Shown piece by piece: positions 2,410 through 15,424 of a stretch of 64,000 nucleotides of DNA. The stretch is from IMG/VR virus record IMGVR_UViG_3300045988_168118, one strand, 5' to 3'. Position 1 is the first letter of the stretch. The number at the start of each line of letters is the position of its first letter. Made by a program: the position numbers and the translations under genes. The stretch comes from a virus. Below the pieces are notes generated by a model. It had not been told where the DNA came from. It worked only from the letters and a program-made list of their open reading frames with translations, and made no database searches.

Positions 2410-3116
2410 GCACTTTCGTGTAATTCTTTTCTTTTTTTCTGCGGCAGTCTCCAACATGACGGCTTAATACTTCTATCCATTTTTTTATGCTGGTCAAAAC
2501 ATTTTTTCATAATTTCAATTTCAATTTTTACATCTTCTAAGCCTGTATGAGATTCTACAAAATCAATATTCTTTTTAATATATTTATAGCATACCTCAGC
2601 GTTAGTTAAAAGATTGCCTTTTTCAGACTCAAATCCGTTTTTCTCAGCAAATTTGATATAGGTGTTTGTACTTAAAATCATCTGACAAGCCATGTTCCAA
2701 ATACAAAAATATTCTGTACCATAAGGGAAAAACCAGCGAATAAAACTTTTGCTATGGTATCTAATAGCATTGTTTAATGCTTTTCTATCAAAATTCATAT
2801 TGTAAGCACCAACTTTTTTCACATTATATTCTCTCATGTCTGCAAACATCTGTTTTCTAATATTGAAAATGCTTTTCATGGTTCTTTTTCCGCTTTTTAA
2901 ATCATCCCAGTATTTCGGAATTTTTTCAGCGTAGTAGGCACTATTCATAGCTTCTTTCAAGTCAATAAATGTCTCAGCGACTACAAAGCTTCTTTCGGTG
3001 ACAATGTTACCGTGTCTATCTGCAATAGCATAGCCAATATCATAAGGGATTGGTTCATTTACACTATTCGCAGTTTCTGTATCCAATACCATGAAAAACT
3101 CTTTTCTTCTACTCAT
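2406..3116 (-). CDS. DEDDh-family 3'-5' exonuclease (DnaQ/epsilon, oligoribonuclease-like).
   Basis: Exo I motif VLDTETAN, Exo II GAYNMNFDRKAL and Exo III HTGLEDV are all present. The likely true start is ATG at 3116 (MSRRKEFF), 9 nt after GAGGA. The track start at 3131 is a TTG. Confidence 0.6.
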   Translation of the reverse strand: MSRRKEFFMVLDTETANSVNEPIPYDIGYAIADRHGNIVTERSFVVAETFIDLKEAMNSAYYAEKIPKYWDDLKSGKRTMKSIFNIRKQMFADMREYNVKKVGAYNMNFDRKALNNAIRYHSKSFIRWFFPYGTEYFCIWNMACQMILSTNTYIKFAEKNGFESEKGNLLTNAEVCYKYIKKNIDFVESHTGLEDVKIEIEIMKKCFDQHKKMDRSIKPSCWRLPQKKRKELHESA

Positions 3117-3171
3117 TTTTGATTTCCTCAACTTTCATTTATTTTTTTTACTATTAACTTGTTACAATGGT

Positions 3172-9899: not shown

Positions 9900-11063
9900 A
9901 TGACACCAATAACATTAGAAGATAAGGCTTTTGAGGAGAATAATGTTTTAGAAGAAGAAAAAAAAATAACAGAAAAACAAATCGAAGAAGAAAATATGCA
10001 AACTACTATTAAACTAGATTATTCTTTAGAAACTCCTGAAGAGCGGAATGAATTAGTTAAAAAAATTATAGATAAGACTCCTTCTGAGCAATTAACACCT
10101 AAATATTTAGAAATATTATCAGATTACATTATTTTTGCTATGGATAAACAAGAGCGGAAACAGAAGCAAATATTAACTGATAATCATATGGTCACAGTTA
10201 ATAAAAGAGAAACTTCTTTTGAAGGATTAGTTGGTCGCTTAGAGAATGGCGAAGATGGCATTTATAATATGATCGCCAATGATAAGAATATTATTTTTAC
10301 ACCTAAATTTCAAATAACTCAACAGGATATTGCGGAAATCCCTGAGTTAAAGCAACTTGTAGACGCGATTGCGGAAGTCGAAAAAGCTGAGAAAAAAGCA
10401 GTTGGTAAAAAGAAATTTTTATTAAAAAAGCAACTTATTGCTATGAGACAAGATCAATATGTAATTAGAAGTGCATACAAGCCGCCAATTTATTGTATGA
10501 ACGCAATTAAAAGTTTTAGCAAAATTGATTTTGATGAAAATGTTTCTATTAGCGGAAATGATGAAATTGAAGATAATAGCTTAGTTTCTTTTTTTAATCC
10601 TAAGCACATATCTGCATTATTATGTAACTATTCCCGCCTAAAAGAAGATGCATGGGGAAAATTCTACAGTGATTCATATTTTTTAATGGAGGATTTAGAT
10701 ACATTAATAGAGAAGACTCTAAGAGATAGTTATCCAATGTATTATGACCTCTTGATTTATAAAATAGACGGAAAACAAAATCTTGAAATTCAGAGTCTGT
10801 TGAATCAAAAACACAATGTAAAACATTCAGTGGAATATATATCATCTTTATGGCGGAATAAAATACCTAAGCTATTGTCAGAGCAAGCTCAGGAAGACTA
10901 TTTAATTTGGTATTACACAACTCAGAAAAAAGGAAAATGGAAAAAATGTTCCCGTTGTGGGGAAATCAAATTAGCTCATAATAAATTTTTTTCAAAGAAT
11001 AAGACAAGTAAAGATCATTTTTACAGTATATGTAAATGTTGTCGAAATAAGAAAAATAAATAA
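9900..11063 (+). CDS. Hypothetical protein, 387 aa, with C-terminal C4 zinc ribbon (CSRCGEIK...CKCC).
   Basis: ORF with RBS AGGAG. First gene of the late block. No family recognised. Confidence 0.55.
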   Translation: MTPITLEDKAFEENNVLEEEKKITEKQIEEENMQTTIKLDYSLETPEERNELVKKIIDKTPSEQLTPKYLEILSDYIIFAMDKQERKQKQILTDNHMVTVNKRETSFEGLVGRLENGEDGIYNMIANDKNIIFTPKFQITQQDIAEIPELKQLVDAIAEVEKAEKKAVGKKKFLLKKQLIAMRQDQYVIRSAYKPPIYCMNAIKSFSKIDFDENVSISGNDEIEDNSLVSFFNPKHISALLCNYSRLKEDAWGKFYSDSYFLMEDLDTLIEKTLRDSYPMYYDLLIYKIDGKQNLEIQSLLNQKHNVKHSVEYISSLWRNKIPKLLSEQAQEDYLIWYYTTQKKGKWKKCSRCGEIKLAHNKFFSKNKTSKDHFYSICKCCRNKKNK

Positions 11064-11075
11064 AGGAGGCTAATA

Positions 11076-12275
11076 ATGAATTATACTTGCAACAAATGCG
11101 GAAAGTCAATGGATGAAATAAATTTTTATACATATAAAAATGGTAAAAAAACAGAATTATGTAAAAAATGTTTAACTATGCATATAAATAATTTTGAACC
11201 TAATACTTTCCTATGGGCATTAGAAAAGATGGATGTTCCATATGTTCCAGAAGAATGGAATATTTTAAGGGATAAAGCCTATGCAAAAGACCCTTATAAA
11301 ATGAATGGGATGTCAGTATTTGGAAAATATCTTTCTAAAATGCGGCTAAAGCAGTGGAAAGATTATAGTTGGGCAGATACAGAAAAGATTGCTCAAGAAA
11401 AAGAAGAAAAGACTCAAAAGGATCTTGAACAACAGAAAAAGTTTGAAGAAAGTATGAAGCAACAGCTTGAAAAAGGTGAAATTTCTGAAGCTGAATACAA
11501 AACGATGGTTTCTACCCCCACTCAAAACGCGGAATTGGCGGTAAAAGCTCCTAAGAATGAGATTGGAACTGACAATTTTTATGATGAAAATAATTTTATA
11601 AGCGAGGATGAATTAATTGATCCCGCCGCGGAATTAACTCAAGAAGATAAGATTTACTTAGCTATGAAATGGGGACGTTTGTATAAACCAAATGAATGGG
11701 TTGAACTAGAGAAAAAATATGAAGAGATGACTAGTTCTTTTGATATTCAAGACTCAGATACTACAGGAACTTTAATTCTTATTTGTAAAACTTATTTAAA
11801 GATGAATCAGGCGATCGATTGCGGTGACATGGATGGCTATCAGAAGTTATCCAGAGTATATGATTCATTACGTAAATCTGCGAAATTCACAGCCGCACAA
11901 AATAAAGAAGTAAAAAGTGATTTTGTAGATTGTATTGGAGAGATGGTTGCCTATTGTGAAAAAAATGGCGGTCAGATTCCAAGGATGAAAATAGATGCAC
12001 CAAATGATATAGTTGATAAAGTTATCATGGATTTAAAAGAGTATACAAGATCATTAATCTATGATGATAAGTCTCTTGCTCAACAGATAGAAAATTATAT
12101 TAAGCAGAGAGAAAATGCTGATGCAATGAAGAAAGATAGAGAAGAAGCTAAAGAAAAAGGCTATAATCAGATAGAAATAAAAGATAGAGATTATCAAGCT
12201 TATTTTGAAAATATTGCAAAAGAAAAAGAAGAAGATGAAAAAATTTATATAGGAGAGGATGAAGACTTTATATGA
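11076..12275 (+). CDS. Putative terminase small subunit, 399 aa, with N-terminal CxxC...CxxC zinc ribbon, coiled-coil and acidic C-terminus.
   Basis: Sits immediately upstream of TerL with an ATGA start/stop overlap at 12272-12275. The function is inferred from position only. Confidence 0.35.
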   Translation: MNYTCNKCGKSMDEINFYTYKNGKKTELCKKCLTMHINNFEPNTFLWALEKMDVPYVPEEWNILRDKAYAKDPYKMNGMSVFGKYLSKMRLKQWKDYSWADTEKIAQEKEEKTQKDLEQQKKFEESMKQQLEKGEISEAEYKTMVSTPTQNAELAVKAPKNEIGTDNFYDENNFISEDELIDPAAELTQEDKIYLAMKWGRLYKPNEWVELEKKYEEMTSSFDIQDSDTTGTLILICKTYLKMNQAIDCGDMDGYQKLSRVYDSLRKSAKFTAAQNKEVKSDFVDCIGEMVAYCEKNGGQIPRMKIDAPNDIVDKVIMDLKEYTRSLIYDDKSLAQQIENYIKQRENADAMKKDREEAKEKGYNQIEIKDRDYQAYFENIAKEKEEDEKIYIGEDEDFI

Positions 12276-12607
12276 GTTTAAAAGGTCTATTAGATTTATC
12301 TGAATCTAGAACCCTTAAGAAACAGGGCATGTCAGAAGAAAGACTAAAAGCTCAACTTCCTCATTTAAGAAATCTAATCGCTTATTATAGAGAATATCCA
12401 GACCTTTTGGTAGACTTTATGAAAGGTCCTGAGAGTACTTTTAAATTCTTTTTTTATCAGAGAATATTTTTAAGGATTACGATGCGGCATAGGTATGTGT
12501 ATGCTACTTTTCCACGTGCGTATAGTAAATCATTCTTATCTATGATGATTCTTATGTTAAGGTGTATTCTCTATCCTAATTCACATTTGTTTGTTACTAC
12601 TGGTGGT
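12272..12607 (+). CDS. terL: Terminase large subunit, exon 1 (ATPase domain with Walker A-like ATFPRAYSKSF).
   Basis: FYQRIFLRIT...ATFPRAYSKSFLSMMILM...HLFVTTGG is TerL N-terminal architecture. The open frame hits a stop 2 codons later. The proposed 5' splice site is after T12607. Confidence 0.6.
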
Positions 12608-13587
12608 AAAATATAATTATAAGTAAAGGAGGAGCATTAAAAATGAGTGCAAAAAACGTCCTAACTAATTTTAATAAAATTGATACTGAAGAAAAAGCTT
12701 ATTGGTTAGGCTTTTTATATGCGGATGGAAGTGTTGGTTCTAAAGAAGATAAAATAGAACTAGGACTAGCAAAAAAAGATTTAAAACATATAGAAAAATT
12801 TAGAGATTTTATGAATATAACTAATAAAATTAGCTATAGAGAAAGAACAAAATCTTATAGAATGAGTTTTAGGAATGCTCAATGTAAACAGGATTTAATA
12901 GATAAAGGGTGCGTTCCTAAAAAATCATTAATTCTTGATTTTCCAAATGAAAAACAAGTACCAAAACATTTAATTAGACATTTTATAAGAGGGTATTTTG
13001 ATGGCGATGGATGGTTTACAAATACAGAAAGTTGTTTTCAAATAGGTATAATCGGAACTGAAAATTTTATAAAAGGTTTTTTGAAATCTATTGAAAATAT
13101 AAATAAAGAAAATAAAATTTTCGATGTTCATAGAGAAAATGGAGCTAAAAGATATGTTTTTGGAGCTTATGAAGATGTTTTAAATTTTTTAAATTGGATT
13201 TATAAAGATTCAAGTATTTATTTGGAAAGAAAATATGCTAGTTATTTAGATTTTATCCAAAATGGAAGTAAGTATCATAAAATAAAATAAAAAATTTTTG
13301 CCGTATATTAAAGAAATTTAATATATGATTATTGCGGAATTAAGCGGGGAGGCTGAGATGCTAATCCGAACCGAAGGCTATAGGAACTATAGTCAGGGGC
13401 AACGCATAGATGGTGAAAAGATATAATCCATCCACGAGTCCGCAACACAGCATTATATAGGAATGCTTGAGACTATCTCACCAATAGTCAAACCTAACGT
13501 AAAACGAGGGTGAAAAGATATGCTAAGCTTATACGAAAAAGAAGTATAAGAACTAAAGGATAAAAAGCCTTTAGGATAATATAACTG
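12608..13587 (+). mobile_element. Group I-like self-splicing intron of about 980 nt interrupting TerL and carrying a LAGLIDADG homing-endonuclease ORF. Boundaries are inferred.
   Basis: The exon 2 frame opens at 13585 with no start codon or RBS, yet encodes conserved TerL sequence (EQAASITIAKIEEICKLIPALNNELDWSRG...SSRGQRRTGGLMEE). Joining after U12607 and G13587 restores the frame to give ...FVTTGG|KEQAASITIAK.... The 3' part of the intron (13300-13587) is non-coding. Confidence 0.55.
12643..13290 (+). CDS. LAGLIDADG homing endonuclease with two motifs, encoded within the intron.
   Basis: Motifs YWLGFLYADGSVG and IRGYFDGDGWF. Own RBS AAGGAGG. Confidence 0.8.
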   Translation: MSAKNVLTNFNKIDTEEKAYWLGFLYADGSVGSKEDKIELGLAKKDLKHIEKFRDFMNITNKISYRERTKSYRMSFRNAQCKQDLIDKGCVPKKSLILDFPNEKQVPKHLIRHFIRGYFDGDGWFTNTESCFQIGIIGTENFIKGFLKSIENINKENKIFDVHRENGAKRYVFGAYEDVLNFLNWIYKDSSIYLERKYASYLDFIQNGSKYHKIK

Positions 13588-14994
13588 AAAGAGCAGGCTG
13601 CCAGTATCACCATAGCGAAAATTGAAGAAATATGTAAGCTTATCCCCGCACTTAATAATGAGCTAGATTGGTCAAGGGGAGCTTCTAAAAAATCAAAAGA
13701 TGATGTTAATTATATCTTTAAAAATGGTTCTTCTATTGATATATTAGCCGCTAAACAATCTTCTAGAGGCCAGCGTAGAACGGGTGGTTTAATGGAAGAA
13801 TGTGTTCTTATAGATGGAGATATATTAAATGAAATAATAATTCCTACAACAAACGTTGATAGATTATTACCAGATGGAACTAGACATAAAGAAGAAATAA
13901 TTAACAAGAGTCAAATATATATTACAACAGCTGGGTGGAAGAATTCATTCGCGTATGACAAACTGACGGAACTTTTGGTTCAGTCTATGATTGAGCCTGA
14001 TAAAGTTATGGTTATGGGTGGAACGTATGAAACGCCTGTTGCGGAAGGGCTTTTAGATGAAGATTTTGTAGATCAGCTCAAATTACAAGGTACATTTAAA
14101 GAAGATTCTTTTGATAGGGAATATCGTTCTAAATGGAGCGGAGATGCAGAAAATGCATTTTATTCTTCTGAAAAGTTTGATAGGTATAGAGTGTTATCCC
14201 AACCAGAATACGAATATAGCGGAAGAAGTAGTAAATCAGCTTATTATGTTATAGGGGTAGACGTCGGACGTATAGGCTGCACAACTGAAGCTTGCATATT
14301 CAAAGTTACCCCTCAACCGCAAGGAACGGCTTTAAAAAGTTTGGTTAATATCTATACTTATGAAGCAGAACATTTTGAGACTCAAGCAATTAATTTAAAA
14401 AAATTATTTTATAAATATAAAGCTAAAATTATCTCTATTGATGCGAATGGCTTGGGTATCGGGCTCATCGACTTCATGACAAGGGCGCAGATTGACCCAG
14501 AAACAGGAGATACTCTTCCGCCATTTGGAGTTGAGGGAGGAACATCAGAGGATGCTATTGCTCCTTACAGAAAAATTAAAGGCGGAGATGTGGAAGATAA
14601 TGCTTTATATTTAATTAAAGCAAACGCACCAATTAACACTGAAGCCTATTCATACACTCAGACTCAAATGTCTAGCGGAAAAATTAAATTTTTGAAAGAT
14701 GAGTCTGAAGCTAAAGCTAAACTAATGTCATCAAAAGTTGGTCAGAATATGGATGCGGATAAAAGAAACGAATATCTAAAACCTTTTGTTTTAACAACAA
14801 TTTTAAGAGAACAAATGCTAAATCTAGTTGAAGAAAATGAAGGAGTTAATATTATTTTAAAACAATCTTCAAGAGGTATAAAGAAAGATAAATTTTCTGC
14901 TTTTATATATGGATTATATTATATAAAGCAGGAAGAAGACCATAAGAAAAAGAAACGAAGTAGAAATATATCAGATTTTATGTTCTTTAACTAA
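13588..14994 (+). CDS. terL: Terminase large subunit, exon 2 (rest of the ATPase domain plus the nuclease domain).
   Basis: Conserved SRGQRRTGGLMEECVLIDGD, ITTAGWKNSFAYDKL and a C-terminal RNase H-like region. The first in-frame ATG is only at 13792. Confidence 0.65.
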   Translation, partial: KEQAASITIAKIEEICKLIPALNNELDWSRGASKKSKDDVNYIFKNGSSIDILAAKQSSRGQRRTGGLMEECVLIDGDILNEIIIPTTNVDRLLPDGTRHKEEIINKSQIYITTAGWKNSFAYDKLTELLVQSMIEPDKVMVMGGTYETPVAEGLLDEDFVDQLKLQGTFKEDSFDREYRSKWSGDAENAFYSSEKFDRYRVLSQPEYEYSGRSSKSAYYVIGVDVGRIGCTTEACIFKVTPQPQGTALKSLVNIYTYEAEHFETQAINLKKLFYKYKAKIISIDANGLGIGLIDFMTRAQIDPETGDTLPPFGVEGGTSEDAIAPYRKIKGGDVEDNALYLIKANAPINTEAYSYTQTQMSSGKIKFLKDESEAKAKLMSSKVGQNMDADKRNEYLKPFVLTTILREQMLNLVEENEGVNIILKQSSRGIKKDKFSAFIYGLYYIKQEEDHKKKKRSRNISDFMFFN

Positions 14995-15067: not shown

Positions 15068-15424
15068 ATGCGAGCAAGTAGAGGTGAAATAAAAATTGAA
15101 GAAATTCTTCAAGAGTCAGGTTTGAATTTTAAAGAAGAGTATATTTTCTCTGACCTTGTAAGTTCTAGTGGTCGACCCCTCAGATTTGATTTTGCGATTT
15201 TAGACGATAATAACGAATTAGATTTTTTAATAGAGTTTCAGGGAATCCAACATTATGAGCCAAAGAGTAAATTTGGCGGAATCTCTGGATTGCGGAAGCA
15301 GCAATATAATGATATGAAGAAGAGAGAATATTGTGCTAAGCACAATATTCCTCTTGTAATCATTCCTTATTGGGATGAAGGTAGACTTGATTATGATTAT
15401 ATTATGACTGCCGCGGGATATTAA
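15068..15424 (+). CDS. DUF559 / Vsr-like PD-(D/E)xK endonuclease, possibly a free-standing homing endonuclease.
   Basis: RFDFAILDDNNELDFLIEFQGIQHYE...PLVIIPYWD matches the DUF559 core rfDF...IEvDG.qH. Lies between TerL and the portal gene. Confidence 0.5.
   Translation: MRASRGEIKIEEILQESGLNFKEEYIFSDLVSSSGRPLRFDFAILDDNNELDFLIEFQGIQHYEPKSKFGGISGLRKQQYNDMKKREYCAKHNIPLVIIPYWDEGRLDYDYIMTAAGY

What the first reader, a model, noticed from the sequence alone, without database searches (positions are those of the whole stretch)
12272..14994. Terminase large subunit interrupted by a roughly 1-kb intron carrying a double-motif LAGLIDADG homing endonuclease, with a predicted in-frame splice junction
The TerL reading frame stops 2 codons after FVTTGG. 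A free-standing LAGLIDADG ORF follows with its own RBS, then about 300 nt of non-coding RNA. The TerL frame then resumes at 13585 with no start codon or RBS, yet encodes conserved ATPase sequence well upstream of the first ATG at 13792. Splicing after U12607, a U at the 5' site, and after G13587, a terminal intron G, joins the frames to give ...VTTGG-KEQAASITIAKIEEI.... This keeps Walker A to Walker B spacing at about 90 aa. Both features are diagnostic of group I introns. I could not locate the internal guide sequence or P7 by eye, so the intron class is inferred.
Basis: partly seen in the sequence, partly recalled or inferred. Interest (0 to 1): 0.6.

Follow-up and report, generated by a model that had tools for sequence, protein, structure and literature searches.

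The report
Homing group I intron splitting terminase gene
The phage's DNA-packaging (terminase large subunit) gene is interrupted by a 980-base mobile group I intron that carries its own LAGLIDADG nuclease gene; this is a well-formed example of a known kind of element, though from an intron family that the standard RNA database model does not detect.

Summary
The observation and the interpretation both hold. TerL is split into exon 1 (12272-12607) and exon 2 (13588-14994) by a 980-nt insert (12608-13587). The insert holds a two-domain LAGLIDADG ORF (12643-13290) and a 297-nt structured RNA.

- **Junction.** Near-identical phages (97-99.4% nt identity over 10.7 kb) lack exactly this insert. They encode an uninterrupted 580-aa protein 100% identical to the predicted spliced product.
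- **Exon 2 is translated.** Its first 68 codons have no start codon but are under strong purifying selection (32 synonymous vs 4 non-synonymous differences).
- **Rfam is blind to it.** RF00028 gives no hit even at E<=10.
- **The RNA is a group I ribozyme.** It belongs to a family with at least 120 copies in IMG/VR. A 74-sequence alignment supports P3-P9.1 by covariation (91% of cells paired vs 30-45% in slid controls). P7 is GCAUA/UAUGC here and GACUA/UAGUC in relatives. One such relative matches RF00028 full-length (E=1.3e-5).
- **Splice-site pairings.** The guide sequence GCCGU pairs with the exon end GUGGU, and P10 is UUUUU/AAAGA. Both pairings change with the exon at other insertion sites.
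- **ORF position.** The ORF lies in the P1 loop.

It is a new member of a known kind. Splicing itself was not tested.

The parts
12272..12607 (+). TerL exon 1 (112 codons, contains Walker A-like PRAYSKS; ends ...ACU GGU GGU)
   Evidence: ORF list. Colinear with the intron-less homologues L001 and L154-158. phrog_15503 profile positions 22-125 and phrog_2 TerL.
12608..13587 (+). Group I intron, 980 nt (5' splice site after U12607, terminal G13587)
   Evidence: Clean 980-bp indel against genomes 97-99.4% identical. The intron is 100% identical in 5 independent contigs. Family structure supported by covariation.
12614..12616 (+). In-frame UAA that stops exon-1 ribosomes 2 codons into the intron
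   Evidence: Sequence and ORF list.
12603..12611 (+). P1 5' strand: exon GUGGU plus intron AAAA
   Evidence: 9/9 standard pairs with 13296-13304, including U12607.G13300.
12626..12632 (+). Shine-Dalgarno AAGGAGG for the intron ORF
   Evidence: Sequence; 10-nt spacer to ATG 12643.
12643..13290 (+). Two-domain LAGLIDADG homing-endonuclease ORF (215 aa), located in the P1 loop (L1)
   Evidence: Pfam LAGLIDADG_3 on both halves. phrog_4645 endonuclease, E=3e-50. The ORF-less same-site intron L053 has an 18-nt L1, and L018 keeps only the ORF 3' remnant.
13295..13304 (+). Internal guide sequence: UUUUU (P10 and P1 extension) plus GCCGU (pairs with the exon-1 end)
   Evidence: Guide and exon change together at other insertion sites.
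13305..13324 (+). P2 hairpin AUAUUAAA-GAAA-UUUAAUAU
   Evidence: Compensated in L023, L030, L053 and L111.
13332..13445 (+). P3 (13332-37/13440-45) enclosing P4 (13345-48/13365-68), P5 (13351-53/13360-62), P6/P6a (13371-98), the P7 5' strand GCAUA (13404-08) and the P7.1 hairpin (13409-32)
   Evidence: Covariation counts on A1: P3 has 6/6 pairs with double changes, P4/P5 6/7, P6a 4/7, P7.1 4/5.
13446..13512 (+). P8, here a three-branched version (outer CAC/GUG; branches 13449-67, 13471-89, 13493-509)
   Evidence: The outer stem covaries (3/3 pairs). The branches are shared and compensated in L033, L053 and L083.
13513..13523 (+). J8/7 AAAAGA plus the P7 3' strand UAUGC (S-element-like AAGAUAUGC)
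   Evidence: Pairs with GCAUA 13404-08. Relatives with GACUA carry UAGUC.
13528..13587 (+). P9 (13528-34/13544-50), P9.1 (13553-59/13568-74), conserved tail GAUAAUAUAACUG ending in the terminal G13587
   Evidence: Covariation. The family-wide GAUAAC...G tail abuts the exon in every member checked.
13588..14994 (+). TerL exon 2 (468 codons plus stop; the first 68 codons have no start codon)
   Evidence: 32 synonymous vs 4 non-synonymous differences in 13588-13791. phrog_15503 continues from profile position 125.

Best explanation
A mobile group I intron of IA-like architecture (980 nt, 12608-13587) interrupts the terminase large subunit gene of an SPbeta-like phage, between the Walker A and Walker B regions.

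Proposed mechanism (inferred from the anatomy):
1. The late transcript runs through exon 1, the intron and exon 2.
2. Ribosomes on exon 1 stop at UAA 12614-16.
3. The LAGLIDADG endonuclease is translated from its own Shine-Dalgarno sequence inside the P1 loop.
4. The downstream 297-nt core folds (P2-P9.1, with the P3/P7 pseudoknot).
5. The guide sequence UUUU-GCCGU (13296-13304) pairs with GUGGU-AAAA across the 5' splice site, giving the U12607.G13300 wobble pair.
6. An exogenous guanosine bound in P7 attacks after U12607.
7. The terminal G13587 then enters the site, and P10 (UUUUU with AAAGA) aligns exon 2.
8. The exons are ligated to ...VTTGG-KEQAAS..., giving a 580-aa TerL.
9. At the DNA level, the endonuclease cuts intron-less alleles at or near ACTACTGGTGGT|AAAGAGCAGGCT during co-infection, and repair copies the intron in (homing).

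Shown here: the anatomy, the exact junction, the RNA structure by covariation, the presence/absence polymorphism, and selection on the start-less exon part. Inferred: catalysis, self-sufficiency of splicing, and nuclease activity and target.
For: Junction and protein
- The insert is a clean indel against MT836163 and against five genomes 97-99.4% identical over 10.7 kb.
- The joined ORF is 100% identical over 580 aa to P0001, an uninterrupted gene read on 17 contigs. Thousands of 580-aa homologues exist, two of the listed ones named 'terminase large subunit' by nr.
- The joined protein hits phrog_2 TerL at 3.4e-23, against 3.8e-5 for exon 1 alone. It hits phrog_15503 as one stretch across the junction.
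- Codons 13588-13791 lack a start codon but show 32 synonymous vs 4 non-synonymous differences.

RNA
- An 18-mer of the core has at least 120 exact hits in IMG/VR.
- On the 74-sequence alignment A1, 91.3% of cells are paired vs 30-45% when partners are slid. 48 of 67 pairs have changes on both sides, and 0/500 shuffles reach the observed values.
- P7 covaries between sub-lineages: GCAUA/UAUGC vs GACUA/UAGUC.
- The relative L142 aligns to RF00028 over positions 1-253 (29.5 bits, E=1.3e-5), with R and S elements in register.
- P1 and P10 change with the exon at another TerL site (L025: ACGGGU/GCCCGU and GGUUUAAU/AUUAAACU) and in other genes.
- All homology-defined junctions have U before the intron and G at its end.

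Mobility
- The intron is 100% identical in five contigs whose flanks differ.
- The family sits in split essential genes of unrelated phages: topoisomerase II, gyrA, RNA polymerase, DNA polymerase, TerL and tape measure.

Precedent
- Group I introns in phage TerL splice in vitro and in vivo (PMC11878797).
Against: - Rfam RF00028 gives no hit on the window at the gathering threshold, nor at E<=10 on 12500-13700 or 13285-13600.
- P1 on the exon side is only 5 bp, 3 of them G.U.
- The P7 5' strand is invariant in A1 by construction, because it was part of the search pattern.
- No RNA data exist, so splicing, its efficiency and any cofactor dependence are untested.
- The nuclease is assigned by weak domain matches only. 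A PDB sequence search gave nothing meaningful.
Confidence: 0.93

Rival explanations
1. Split TerL without splicing. A free-standing homing endonuclease plus spacer has cut the gene in two, and the terminase is assembled from two polypeptides: 114 aa, plus a C-terminal piece started at CUG 13585 or AUG 13792.
For: Gene callers annotate 114-aa and 400-aa ORFs in all public copies. A weak AGGA lies 8 nt upstream of CUG 13585. Genes split by free-standing endonucleases are known in T4-like phages (my own knowledge).
Against: No ATG, GTG or TTG occurs between the TAA at 13582 and 13792, yet these 68 codons are under purifying selection (32 synonymous: 4 non-synonymous). A start at 13792 would begin inside Walker B. 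The AGGA is part of the P9.1 stem and tail, which are conserved in the family whatever the host gene. The spacer is a covarying ribozyme-like RNA whose guide sequence matches both exon ends.
Confidence: 0.03
2. Decayed or splicing-incompetent intron. The TerL allele in this window is a pseudogene, or depends on a helper phage.
For: Splicing was not measured. P1 is weak. Some Bastillevirinae introns did not self-splice in vitro (PMC11878797).
Against: All core helices are intact. The intron is 100% identical in at least 5 contigs of up to 137 kb, and the exact nuclease protein is indexed in 167 blocks of the collection. The exons encode a protein identical to the intron-less allele. TerL is essential for a tailed phage.
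Confidence: 0.03
3. Another kind of intervening element: an intein, a group II intron, or translational bypass.
For: LAGLIDADG domains also occur in inteins. TerL genes often carry inteins (for example the Listeria phage LIS04 annotation).
Against: The insert is not an in-frame ORF: there is a stop after 2 codons, and the nuclease has its own start in another context. There is no reverse transcriptase ORF and no RF00029 or domain V hit. The boundaries AAAAU...ACUG are not group II-like. 980 nt is far beyond any known bypass.
Confidence: 0.01

Closest known systems
Group I introns in terminase large subunit genes of Bacillus phages (Bastillevirinae: SIOphi, phiAGATE; PMC11878797)
   Same: Same host gene class. 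Group I ribozyme with a loop-encoded homing endonuclease. IA-like cores that standard models detect only in part. Splicing shown in vitro and in vivo for those introns.
   Different: Different phage lineage (SPbeta-like, gut metagenomes). The nuclease here is LAGLIDADG; theirs in TerL are VSR/HNH-type (phrog_559). No RF00028 signal at all here. Whether the insertion site is the same was not compared.
Subgroup IA2 phage introns (T4 td/nrdB/nrdD, Twort orf142, SPO1 and Pf-WMP3 DNA polymerase)
   Same: Short P4-P6 domain. R-like CAACG-N5-G and S-like AAGAUA-N5 elements. An extra hairpin directly after the P7 5' strand. Extended P9 with P9.1. Insertion in essential phage genes. An in-frame stop soon after the 5' splice site.
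   Different: IA2 is defined by P7.1 and P7.2 linked by G-U-A (PMC3428280). Here there is a single hairpin, sometimes with a nested extension, followed by the conserved CCACGAG. P7 is GCAUA/UAUGC. The ORF is in L1 rather than in P6a, P7 or P9 loops.
Rfam RF00028 Intron_gpI
   Same: The homologue L142 aligns over the whole model (P2-P9), with P4/P5/P6, R and S in register.
   Different: The window intron scores below E=10. Even L142, and the annotated phiCD211 intron, fall below the gathering score of 50 bits (29.5 and 41.7 bits).
LAGLIDADG homing endonucleases, single-chain two-domain type (e.g. I-SceI, I-DmoI, I-AniI class)
   Same: About 215 aa with two LAGLIDADG-like domains (LGFLYADGS and IRGYFDGDG), each with an acidic residue. 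Encoded within a group I intron.
   Different: Only weak profile similarity (Pfam 35 bits). No solved relative found by sequence. Activity and target are unknown. The LAGLIDADG type is a minority among phage intron nucleases (1 of the CDS groups in PMC11878797).

Membership tests
Group I intron | U as the last exon nucleotide, forming a U.G wobble pair with an internal guide sequence (P1) | tested here: met
   U12607.G13300. P1 is GUGGUAAAA/UUUUGCCGU, 9/9 pairs. The junction was fixed independently by intron-less alleles. The guide changes with the exon at other sites.
Group I intron | Terminal intron G, with P10 pairing of the guide to the 3' exon | tested here: met
   G13587. P10 is UUUUU 13295-99 with AAAGA 13588-92. 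L025 has an 8-bp P10 and L014 an 8-bp P10 with different sequences.
Group I intron | Conserved core P3-P9 in canonical order, with the P3/P7 pseudoknot, supported by covariation | tested here: met
   A1, 74 sequences: 91.3% of cells paired vs 30-45% slid; 48/67 pairs with double changes. P7 swaps GCAUA/UAUGC for GACUA/UAGUC.
Group I intron | Guanosine-binding site in P7 (a G-C pair next to a bulged nucleotide) and R/S consensus elements | tested here: inconclusive
   A13402-U13524, bulged C13403 and G13404-C13523 fit the canonical layout. CAACG..AG and AAGAUA are present. Binding cannot be tested in silico.
Group I intron | Match to the curated covariance model RF00028 | tested here: not met
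   No hit at the gathering score or at E<=10. The homologue L142 gives 29.5 bits, E=1.3e-5, full length. A model limitation is the likely cause.
Group I intron | GTP-dependent self-splicing that yields ligated exons | not testable with these tools
   Indirect only: the spliced ORF is identical to an uninterrupted gene, and the start-less exon part is under selection.
Group I subgroup IA2 | P7.1 and P7.2 hairpins linked by G-U-A between P7 and P3' (PMC3428280) | tested here: not met
   Only one hairpin (13409-13432) lies between P7 and P3', followed by CACGAGU. The subgroup is left as IA-like.
LAGLIDADG homing endonuclease (two-domain) | Two LAGLIDADG motifs or domains in one chain, with conserved acidic residues | tested here: met
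   LAGLIDADG_3 whole protein 35 bits against a cutoff of 22.5. N-terminal half E=0.0022 and C-terminal half E=4.7e-4, both from profile position 3. Motifs LGFLYADGS and IRGYFDGDG.
LAGLIDADG homing endonuclease (two-domain) | Site-specific cleavage of the intron-less allele | not testable with these tools
   The presence/absence polymorphism in genomes 97-99% identical, and a 100% identical intron in different backgrounds, are consistent with homing.
Terminase large subunit | N-terminal ATPase (Walker A/B) plus C-terminal nuclease, next to the portal gene | tested here: met
   phrog_2 TerL E=3.4e-23 over residues 26-479 of the joined protein. Portal (phrog_2739, 1e-78) two genes downstream (one 118-aa ORF between). 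nr name 'terminase large subunit'. No Pfam, NCBIfam or PDB hit.
Intein | In-frame insertion translated with the host protein | tested here: not met
   A stop codon comes 2 codons into the insert, and the nuclease ORF has a separate start.
Group II intron | Six-domain RNA with domain V, GUGYG...AY boundaries, usually a reverse transcriptase ORF | tested here: not met
   No Rfam group II hit. Boundaries are AAAAU...ACUG. The ORF is LAGLIDADG, and the non-coding RNA is only 297 nt.

The most novel reading that the evidence does not exclude
The intron belongs to a large, widespread phage group I lineage that is not represented in curated models and may deserve its own IA sub-subgroup. Its features are: a doubly compensated P7 (GCAUA/UAUGC); a single conserved P7.1 hairpin whose loop (UGAAAAGAUAUAAU) copies the J8/7-P7' sequence; a preference for inserting after GGU; and endonuclease ORFs in different loops in different members, in the P1 loop here. 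With the ORF between the 5' splice site and the guide sequence, P1 can form only after about 700 nt are transcribed. Translation of the nuclease could therefore time or throttle TerL splicing.
Probability: 0.3. Interest if true: 0.4.

Novelty: new member of a known kind. Interest (0 to 1): 0.32.

Why it matters
- **Annotation.** Every public copy of this phage's terminase is called as two unrelated ORFs (114 and 400 aa), and 68 conserved codons are left unannotated. The correct product is a 580-aa TerL.
- **Detection gap.** A family of group I introns with at least 120 copies in IMG/VR sits unannotated in split essential genes of isolates. Examples are phiR1-37 topoisomerase II, BpSp gyrA, AhC3_1 RNA polymerase, MMB025 DNA polymerase, and the phiCD211 and c-st tape measure genes. 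Rfam RF00028 does not see it, so intron content in phage genomes is under-counted.
- **Population data.** Intron-plus and intron-minus alleles coexist in near-identical gut phages. This is a natural system for studying homing.
- **Conceptually**, it is an ordinary example of a known phenomenon.

Tried and rejected
- **Rfam, window.** Gathering threshold on the whole window, then E<=10 on 12500-13700 and on 13285-13600: no group I hit.
- **Rfam, related loci.** Eight related phage loci at the gathering score, and seven of them at E<=1: nothing. RF00028 is in the library, since it hits phiCD211 at 41.7 bits.
- **TerL identity.** Pfam, NCBIfam and a PDB sequence search on the joined TerL: no hits. 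Identity therefore rests on PHROGs, the nr name, motifs and synteny.
- **Nuclease.** PDB sequence search returned only spurious repeat-protein matches and a marginal I-MsoI hit.
- **Structure prediction.** AlphaFold2 on the single sequence P0001 gave mean pLDDT 36, which is unusable, so no fold search was run.
- **My own early misreadings.** I first took GACUAU/AUAGUC (13471-89) for P7, and then AAGAUAUAAUCC (13418-29) for J8/7-P7'. Both were rejected after the family alignment: the first is a branch of P8 found only in a sub-lineage, the second is the P7.1 loop.
- **Promoter/terminator scan** across the locus: no enrichment, uninformative.
- **Rejected on sequence grounds:** intein, group II intron, translational bypass.


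Full report
**1. What is in the sequence**

The ORF starting at 12272 reads ...YPNSHLFVTTGGKI* and stops at 12614-16.

A 215-aa ORF (12643-13290) follows. An AAGGAGG sequence (12626-32) lies 10 nt upstream of its ATG. The protein matches Pfam LAGLIDADG_3 (35 bits, cutoff 22.5) and phrog_4645 'endonuclease' (E=3e-50). Scanned separately, both halves match LAGLIDADG_3 from profile position 3 (E=0.0022 and 4.7e-4). The motifs are LGFLYADGS and IRGYFDGDG, so it is a single-chain, two-domain enzyme.

Next come 297 nt without an ORF (13291-13587). They are GC-richer than the ORF (0.36 vs 0.24) and fold better than shuffles (z=-3.5).

The TerL frame reopens after a TAA at 13582-84. It has no ATG, GTG or TTG until 13792.

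**2. The junction is exact and independently fixed**

- A fecal-metagenome phage (MT836163, 81-83% identical) carries the same gene without the insert. Exon 1 aligns to 2501-2839 and exon 2 to 2837-4233 of L001, with a 3-nt AAA overlap.
- A protein search with the conceptually spliced 580-aa product found P0001. It is 100% identical over all 580 residues and is encoded as one uninterrupted gene on 17 contigs. Thousands of other 580-aa homologues exist, two of the listed ones named 'terminase large subunit' by nr.
- Five of those contigs are 97-99.4% identical to the window over 10.7 kb. They differ by a clean 980-bp indel at ACTACTGGTGGT|AAAGAGCAGGCT.
- Conversely, the exact nuclease protein is indexed in 167 blocks of the collection, always between the 114-aa and 400-aa (or 348-aa) ORFs.
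- The 980-nt insert is 100% identical in five contigs whose flanks differ.

Intron-plus and intron-minus alleles therefore coexist in one phage species.

**3. The start-less part of exon 2 is translated**

Against L001, codons 13588-13791 show 32 identical codons, 32 synonymous differences and 4 non-synonymous differences. That pattern requires translation, and the stretch has no start of its own.

The joined protein hits phrog_15503 as a single stretch (residues 12-233 to profile 24-243). It hits phrog_2 'terminase large subunit' at 3.4e-23, against 3.8e-5 for exon 1 alone. The second gene downstream, after a 118-aa ORF, is the portal (phrog_2739, 1e-78).

Flanking genes carry the Pfam families YonG_N and YonD_N, and the contigs are about 134 kb. 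This indicates an SPbeta-like phage.

**4. What the RNA is**

Rfam gave nothing: no hit at the gathering score on the window, and none at E<=10 on 12500-13700 or 13285-13600. RF00028 is in the library, since it hits the annotated phiCD211 intron at 41.7 bits.

BLAST showed that the 297-nt RNA is homologous (70-88%) to unannotated spacers in split essential genes of unrelated phages:

| Phage | Split gene |
|---|---|
| phiR1-37 | topoisomerase II |
| BpSp | gyrA |
| AhC3_1 | RNA polymerase |
| MMB025 | DNA polymerase |
| LIS04 | TerL |
| phiCD211, c-st | tape measure |

(Exiguobacterium phage vB_EauM-23 also carries a homologous spacer, immediately downstream of its annotated TerL ORF.)

An 18-mer of the core (GTCAGGGGCAACGCATAG) has at least 120 exact matches in IMG/VR.

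I aligned 74 distinct members (A1) and mapped a hand-built group I model onto the alignment.

- 91.3% of cells form standard pairs, against 30-45% when partners are slid by 1-3 columns.
- 48 of 67 pairs show changes on both sides.
- No shuffle of 500 reaches the observed values.
- P3 (6/6 pairs), P4/P5 (6/7), P6a (4/7), the hairpin after P7 (4/5), P8 (3/3), P9 (6/7) and P9.1 (7/7) all covary.

P7 is invariant in A1, because its 5' strand was part of the search pattern. A second scan for members with GACUA settled this. Those members carry UAGUC after the conserved GAAAAGA (L124, L131, L132, L142, L147). The window lineage has GCAUA/UAUGC. That is two adjacent compensated pairs, which supports the P3/P7 pseudoknot.

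One GACUA member (L142) aligns to RF00028 over the whole model (29.5 bits, E=1.3e-5). P4-P6, the R element (GGGGCAACGACUAGA) and the S element (GAAAAGAUAGUCUGAAC) are in register. The window intron differs from such members essentially by the P7 swap. This, together with the long P7.1 insertion, plausibly explains why Rfam misses it.

**5. Splice-site pairings**

The guide sequence lies after the ORF. UUUU-GCCGU (13296-13304) pairs 9/9 with GUGGU-AAAA (12603-12611), which places U12607 opposite G13300. UUUUU (13295-99) pairs with the first five exon-2 bases, AAAGA (P10).

The same architecture with different sequences is seen where junctions are fixed by protein homology. In L025 and L071 (TerL, Walker B site) P1 is ACGGGU/GCCCGU and P10 is GGUUUAAU/AUUAAACU.

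Junctions inferred less independently fit as well: L014 CAUGGU/GCCAUG with an 8-bp P10, and L062 GUCGGU/GCCGAC.

P2 (13305-24, GAAA loop) is compensated in L023, L030, L053 and L111.

An ORF-less intron at the same TerL site (L053) has an 18-nt P1 loop. L018 retains only the last roughly 30 nt of the ORF. The nuclease gene is therefore an insertion in L1.

**6. Classification**

The layout is IA-like: a short P4-P6 domain, a hairpin directly after P7, and P9 plus P9.1.

IA2 is defined by P7.1 and P7.2 linked by G-U-A (PMC3428280). Here only one hairpin lies between P7 and P3', so I do not assign a subgroup.

Group I introns in phage TerL genes are already known, and they splice in vitro and in vivo (PMC11878797). 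The same paper notes that phage IA2-like introns are heterogeneous and only partly detected by RF00028 and GISSD models.

**7. Rivals**

- A two-polypeptide TerL without splicing is contradicted by selection on the start-less codons and by the ribozyme-like RNA whose guide matches both exons.
- A dead intron is unlikely. The core is intact, the allele is widespread and identical in many samples, and the gene is essential.
- Intein, group II intron and translational bypass are excluded by the sequence.

Splicing itself, GTP dependence and nuclease activity were not and could not be tested here.

**8. Verdict**

The element is a new member of a known kind. The only mildly unusual points are that the standard model cannot see the family, and that the ORF sits in the P1 loop.

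Noticed in passing
window 15068-15424 (+): The 118-aa ORF between TerL and the portal gene matches only the C-terminal part of the homing-endonuclease families phrog_559 and phrog_9084 (E about 1e-29). phrog_559 is the VSR-type nuclease found inside TerL introns of Bastillevirinae. The ORF is also present in the intron-less sister genomes, so it is a free-standing, possibly truncated nuclease domain.
   Followed up: partly
L161, L163, L164 (sister genomes of the window): Some near-identical phages carry extra interruptions. The yonG-like gene upstream of TerL is split (250 aa, a 257-aa NUMOD3 protein, 148 aa). TerL exon 2 is split again (348 aa, then a 278-aa HNH_3 protein). The lineage has a variable intron load; the window has only the one intron (nhmmer finds a single family copy).
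   Followed up: partly
L003 (phiCD211) 2303-2865; L165 (phage c-st) about 2766-3136: The phiCD211 tape-measure gene appears to hold two tandem introns separated by a roughly 30-nt mini-exon. The first is an unannotated member of this family (nhmmer E=7e-24, ending ...GAUAACAAAUUG at about 2576). The second is the annotated RF00028 intron (2601-2865). Phage c-st has a family member between two tape-measure fragments.
   Followed up: partly
window 13412-13424 and 13509-13521: A 13-nt direct repeat, GGUGAAAAGAUAU. The loop of the P7.1 hairpin copies the J8/7-P7' segment, and this loop sequence is conserved across most of the family. It could reflect an internal duplication or an alternative or tertiary pairing. 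Unexplained.
   Followed up: no
family loci L014, L025, L053, L062, L066, L090, L111 and window 12605-12607: In every member where the 5' junction could be read, the 5' exon ends in GGU and the guide begins GCC. The family seems to insert preferentially after GGU, often a glycine codon in P-loop-like motifs.
   Followed up: partly
window 9900-11063 (+): The 387-aa protein upstream of the yonG-like gene matches a phage sigma-factor family (phrog_5767, 1.5e-51). It has a cysteine-rich C-terminus with a weak endonuclease VII-like hit.
   Followed up: no
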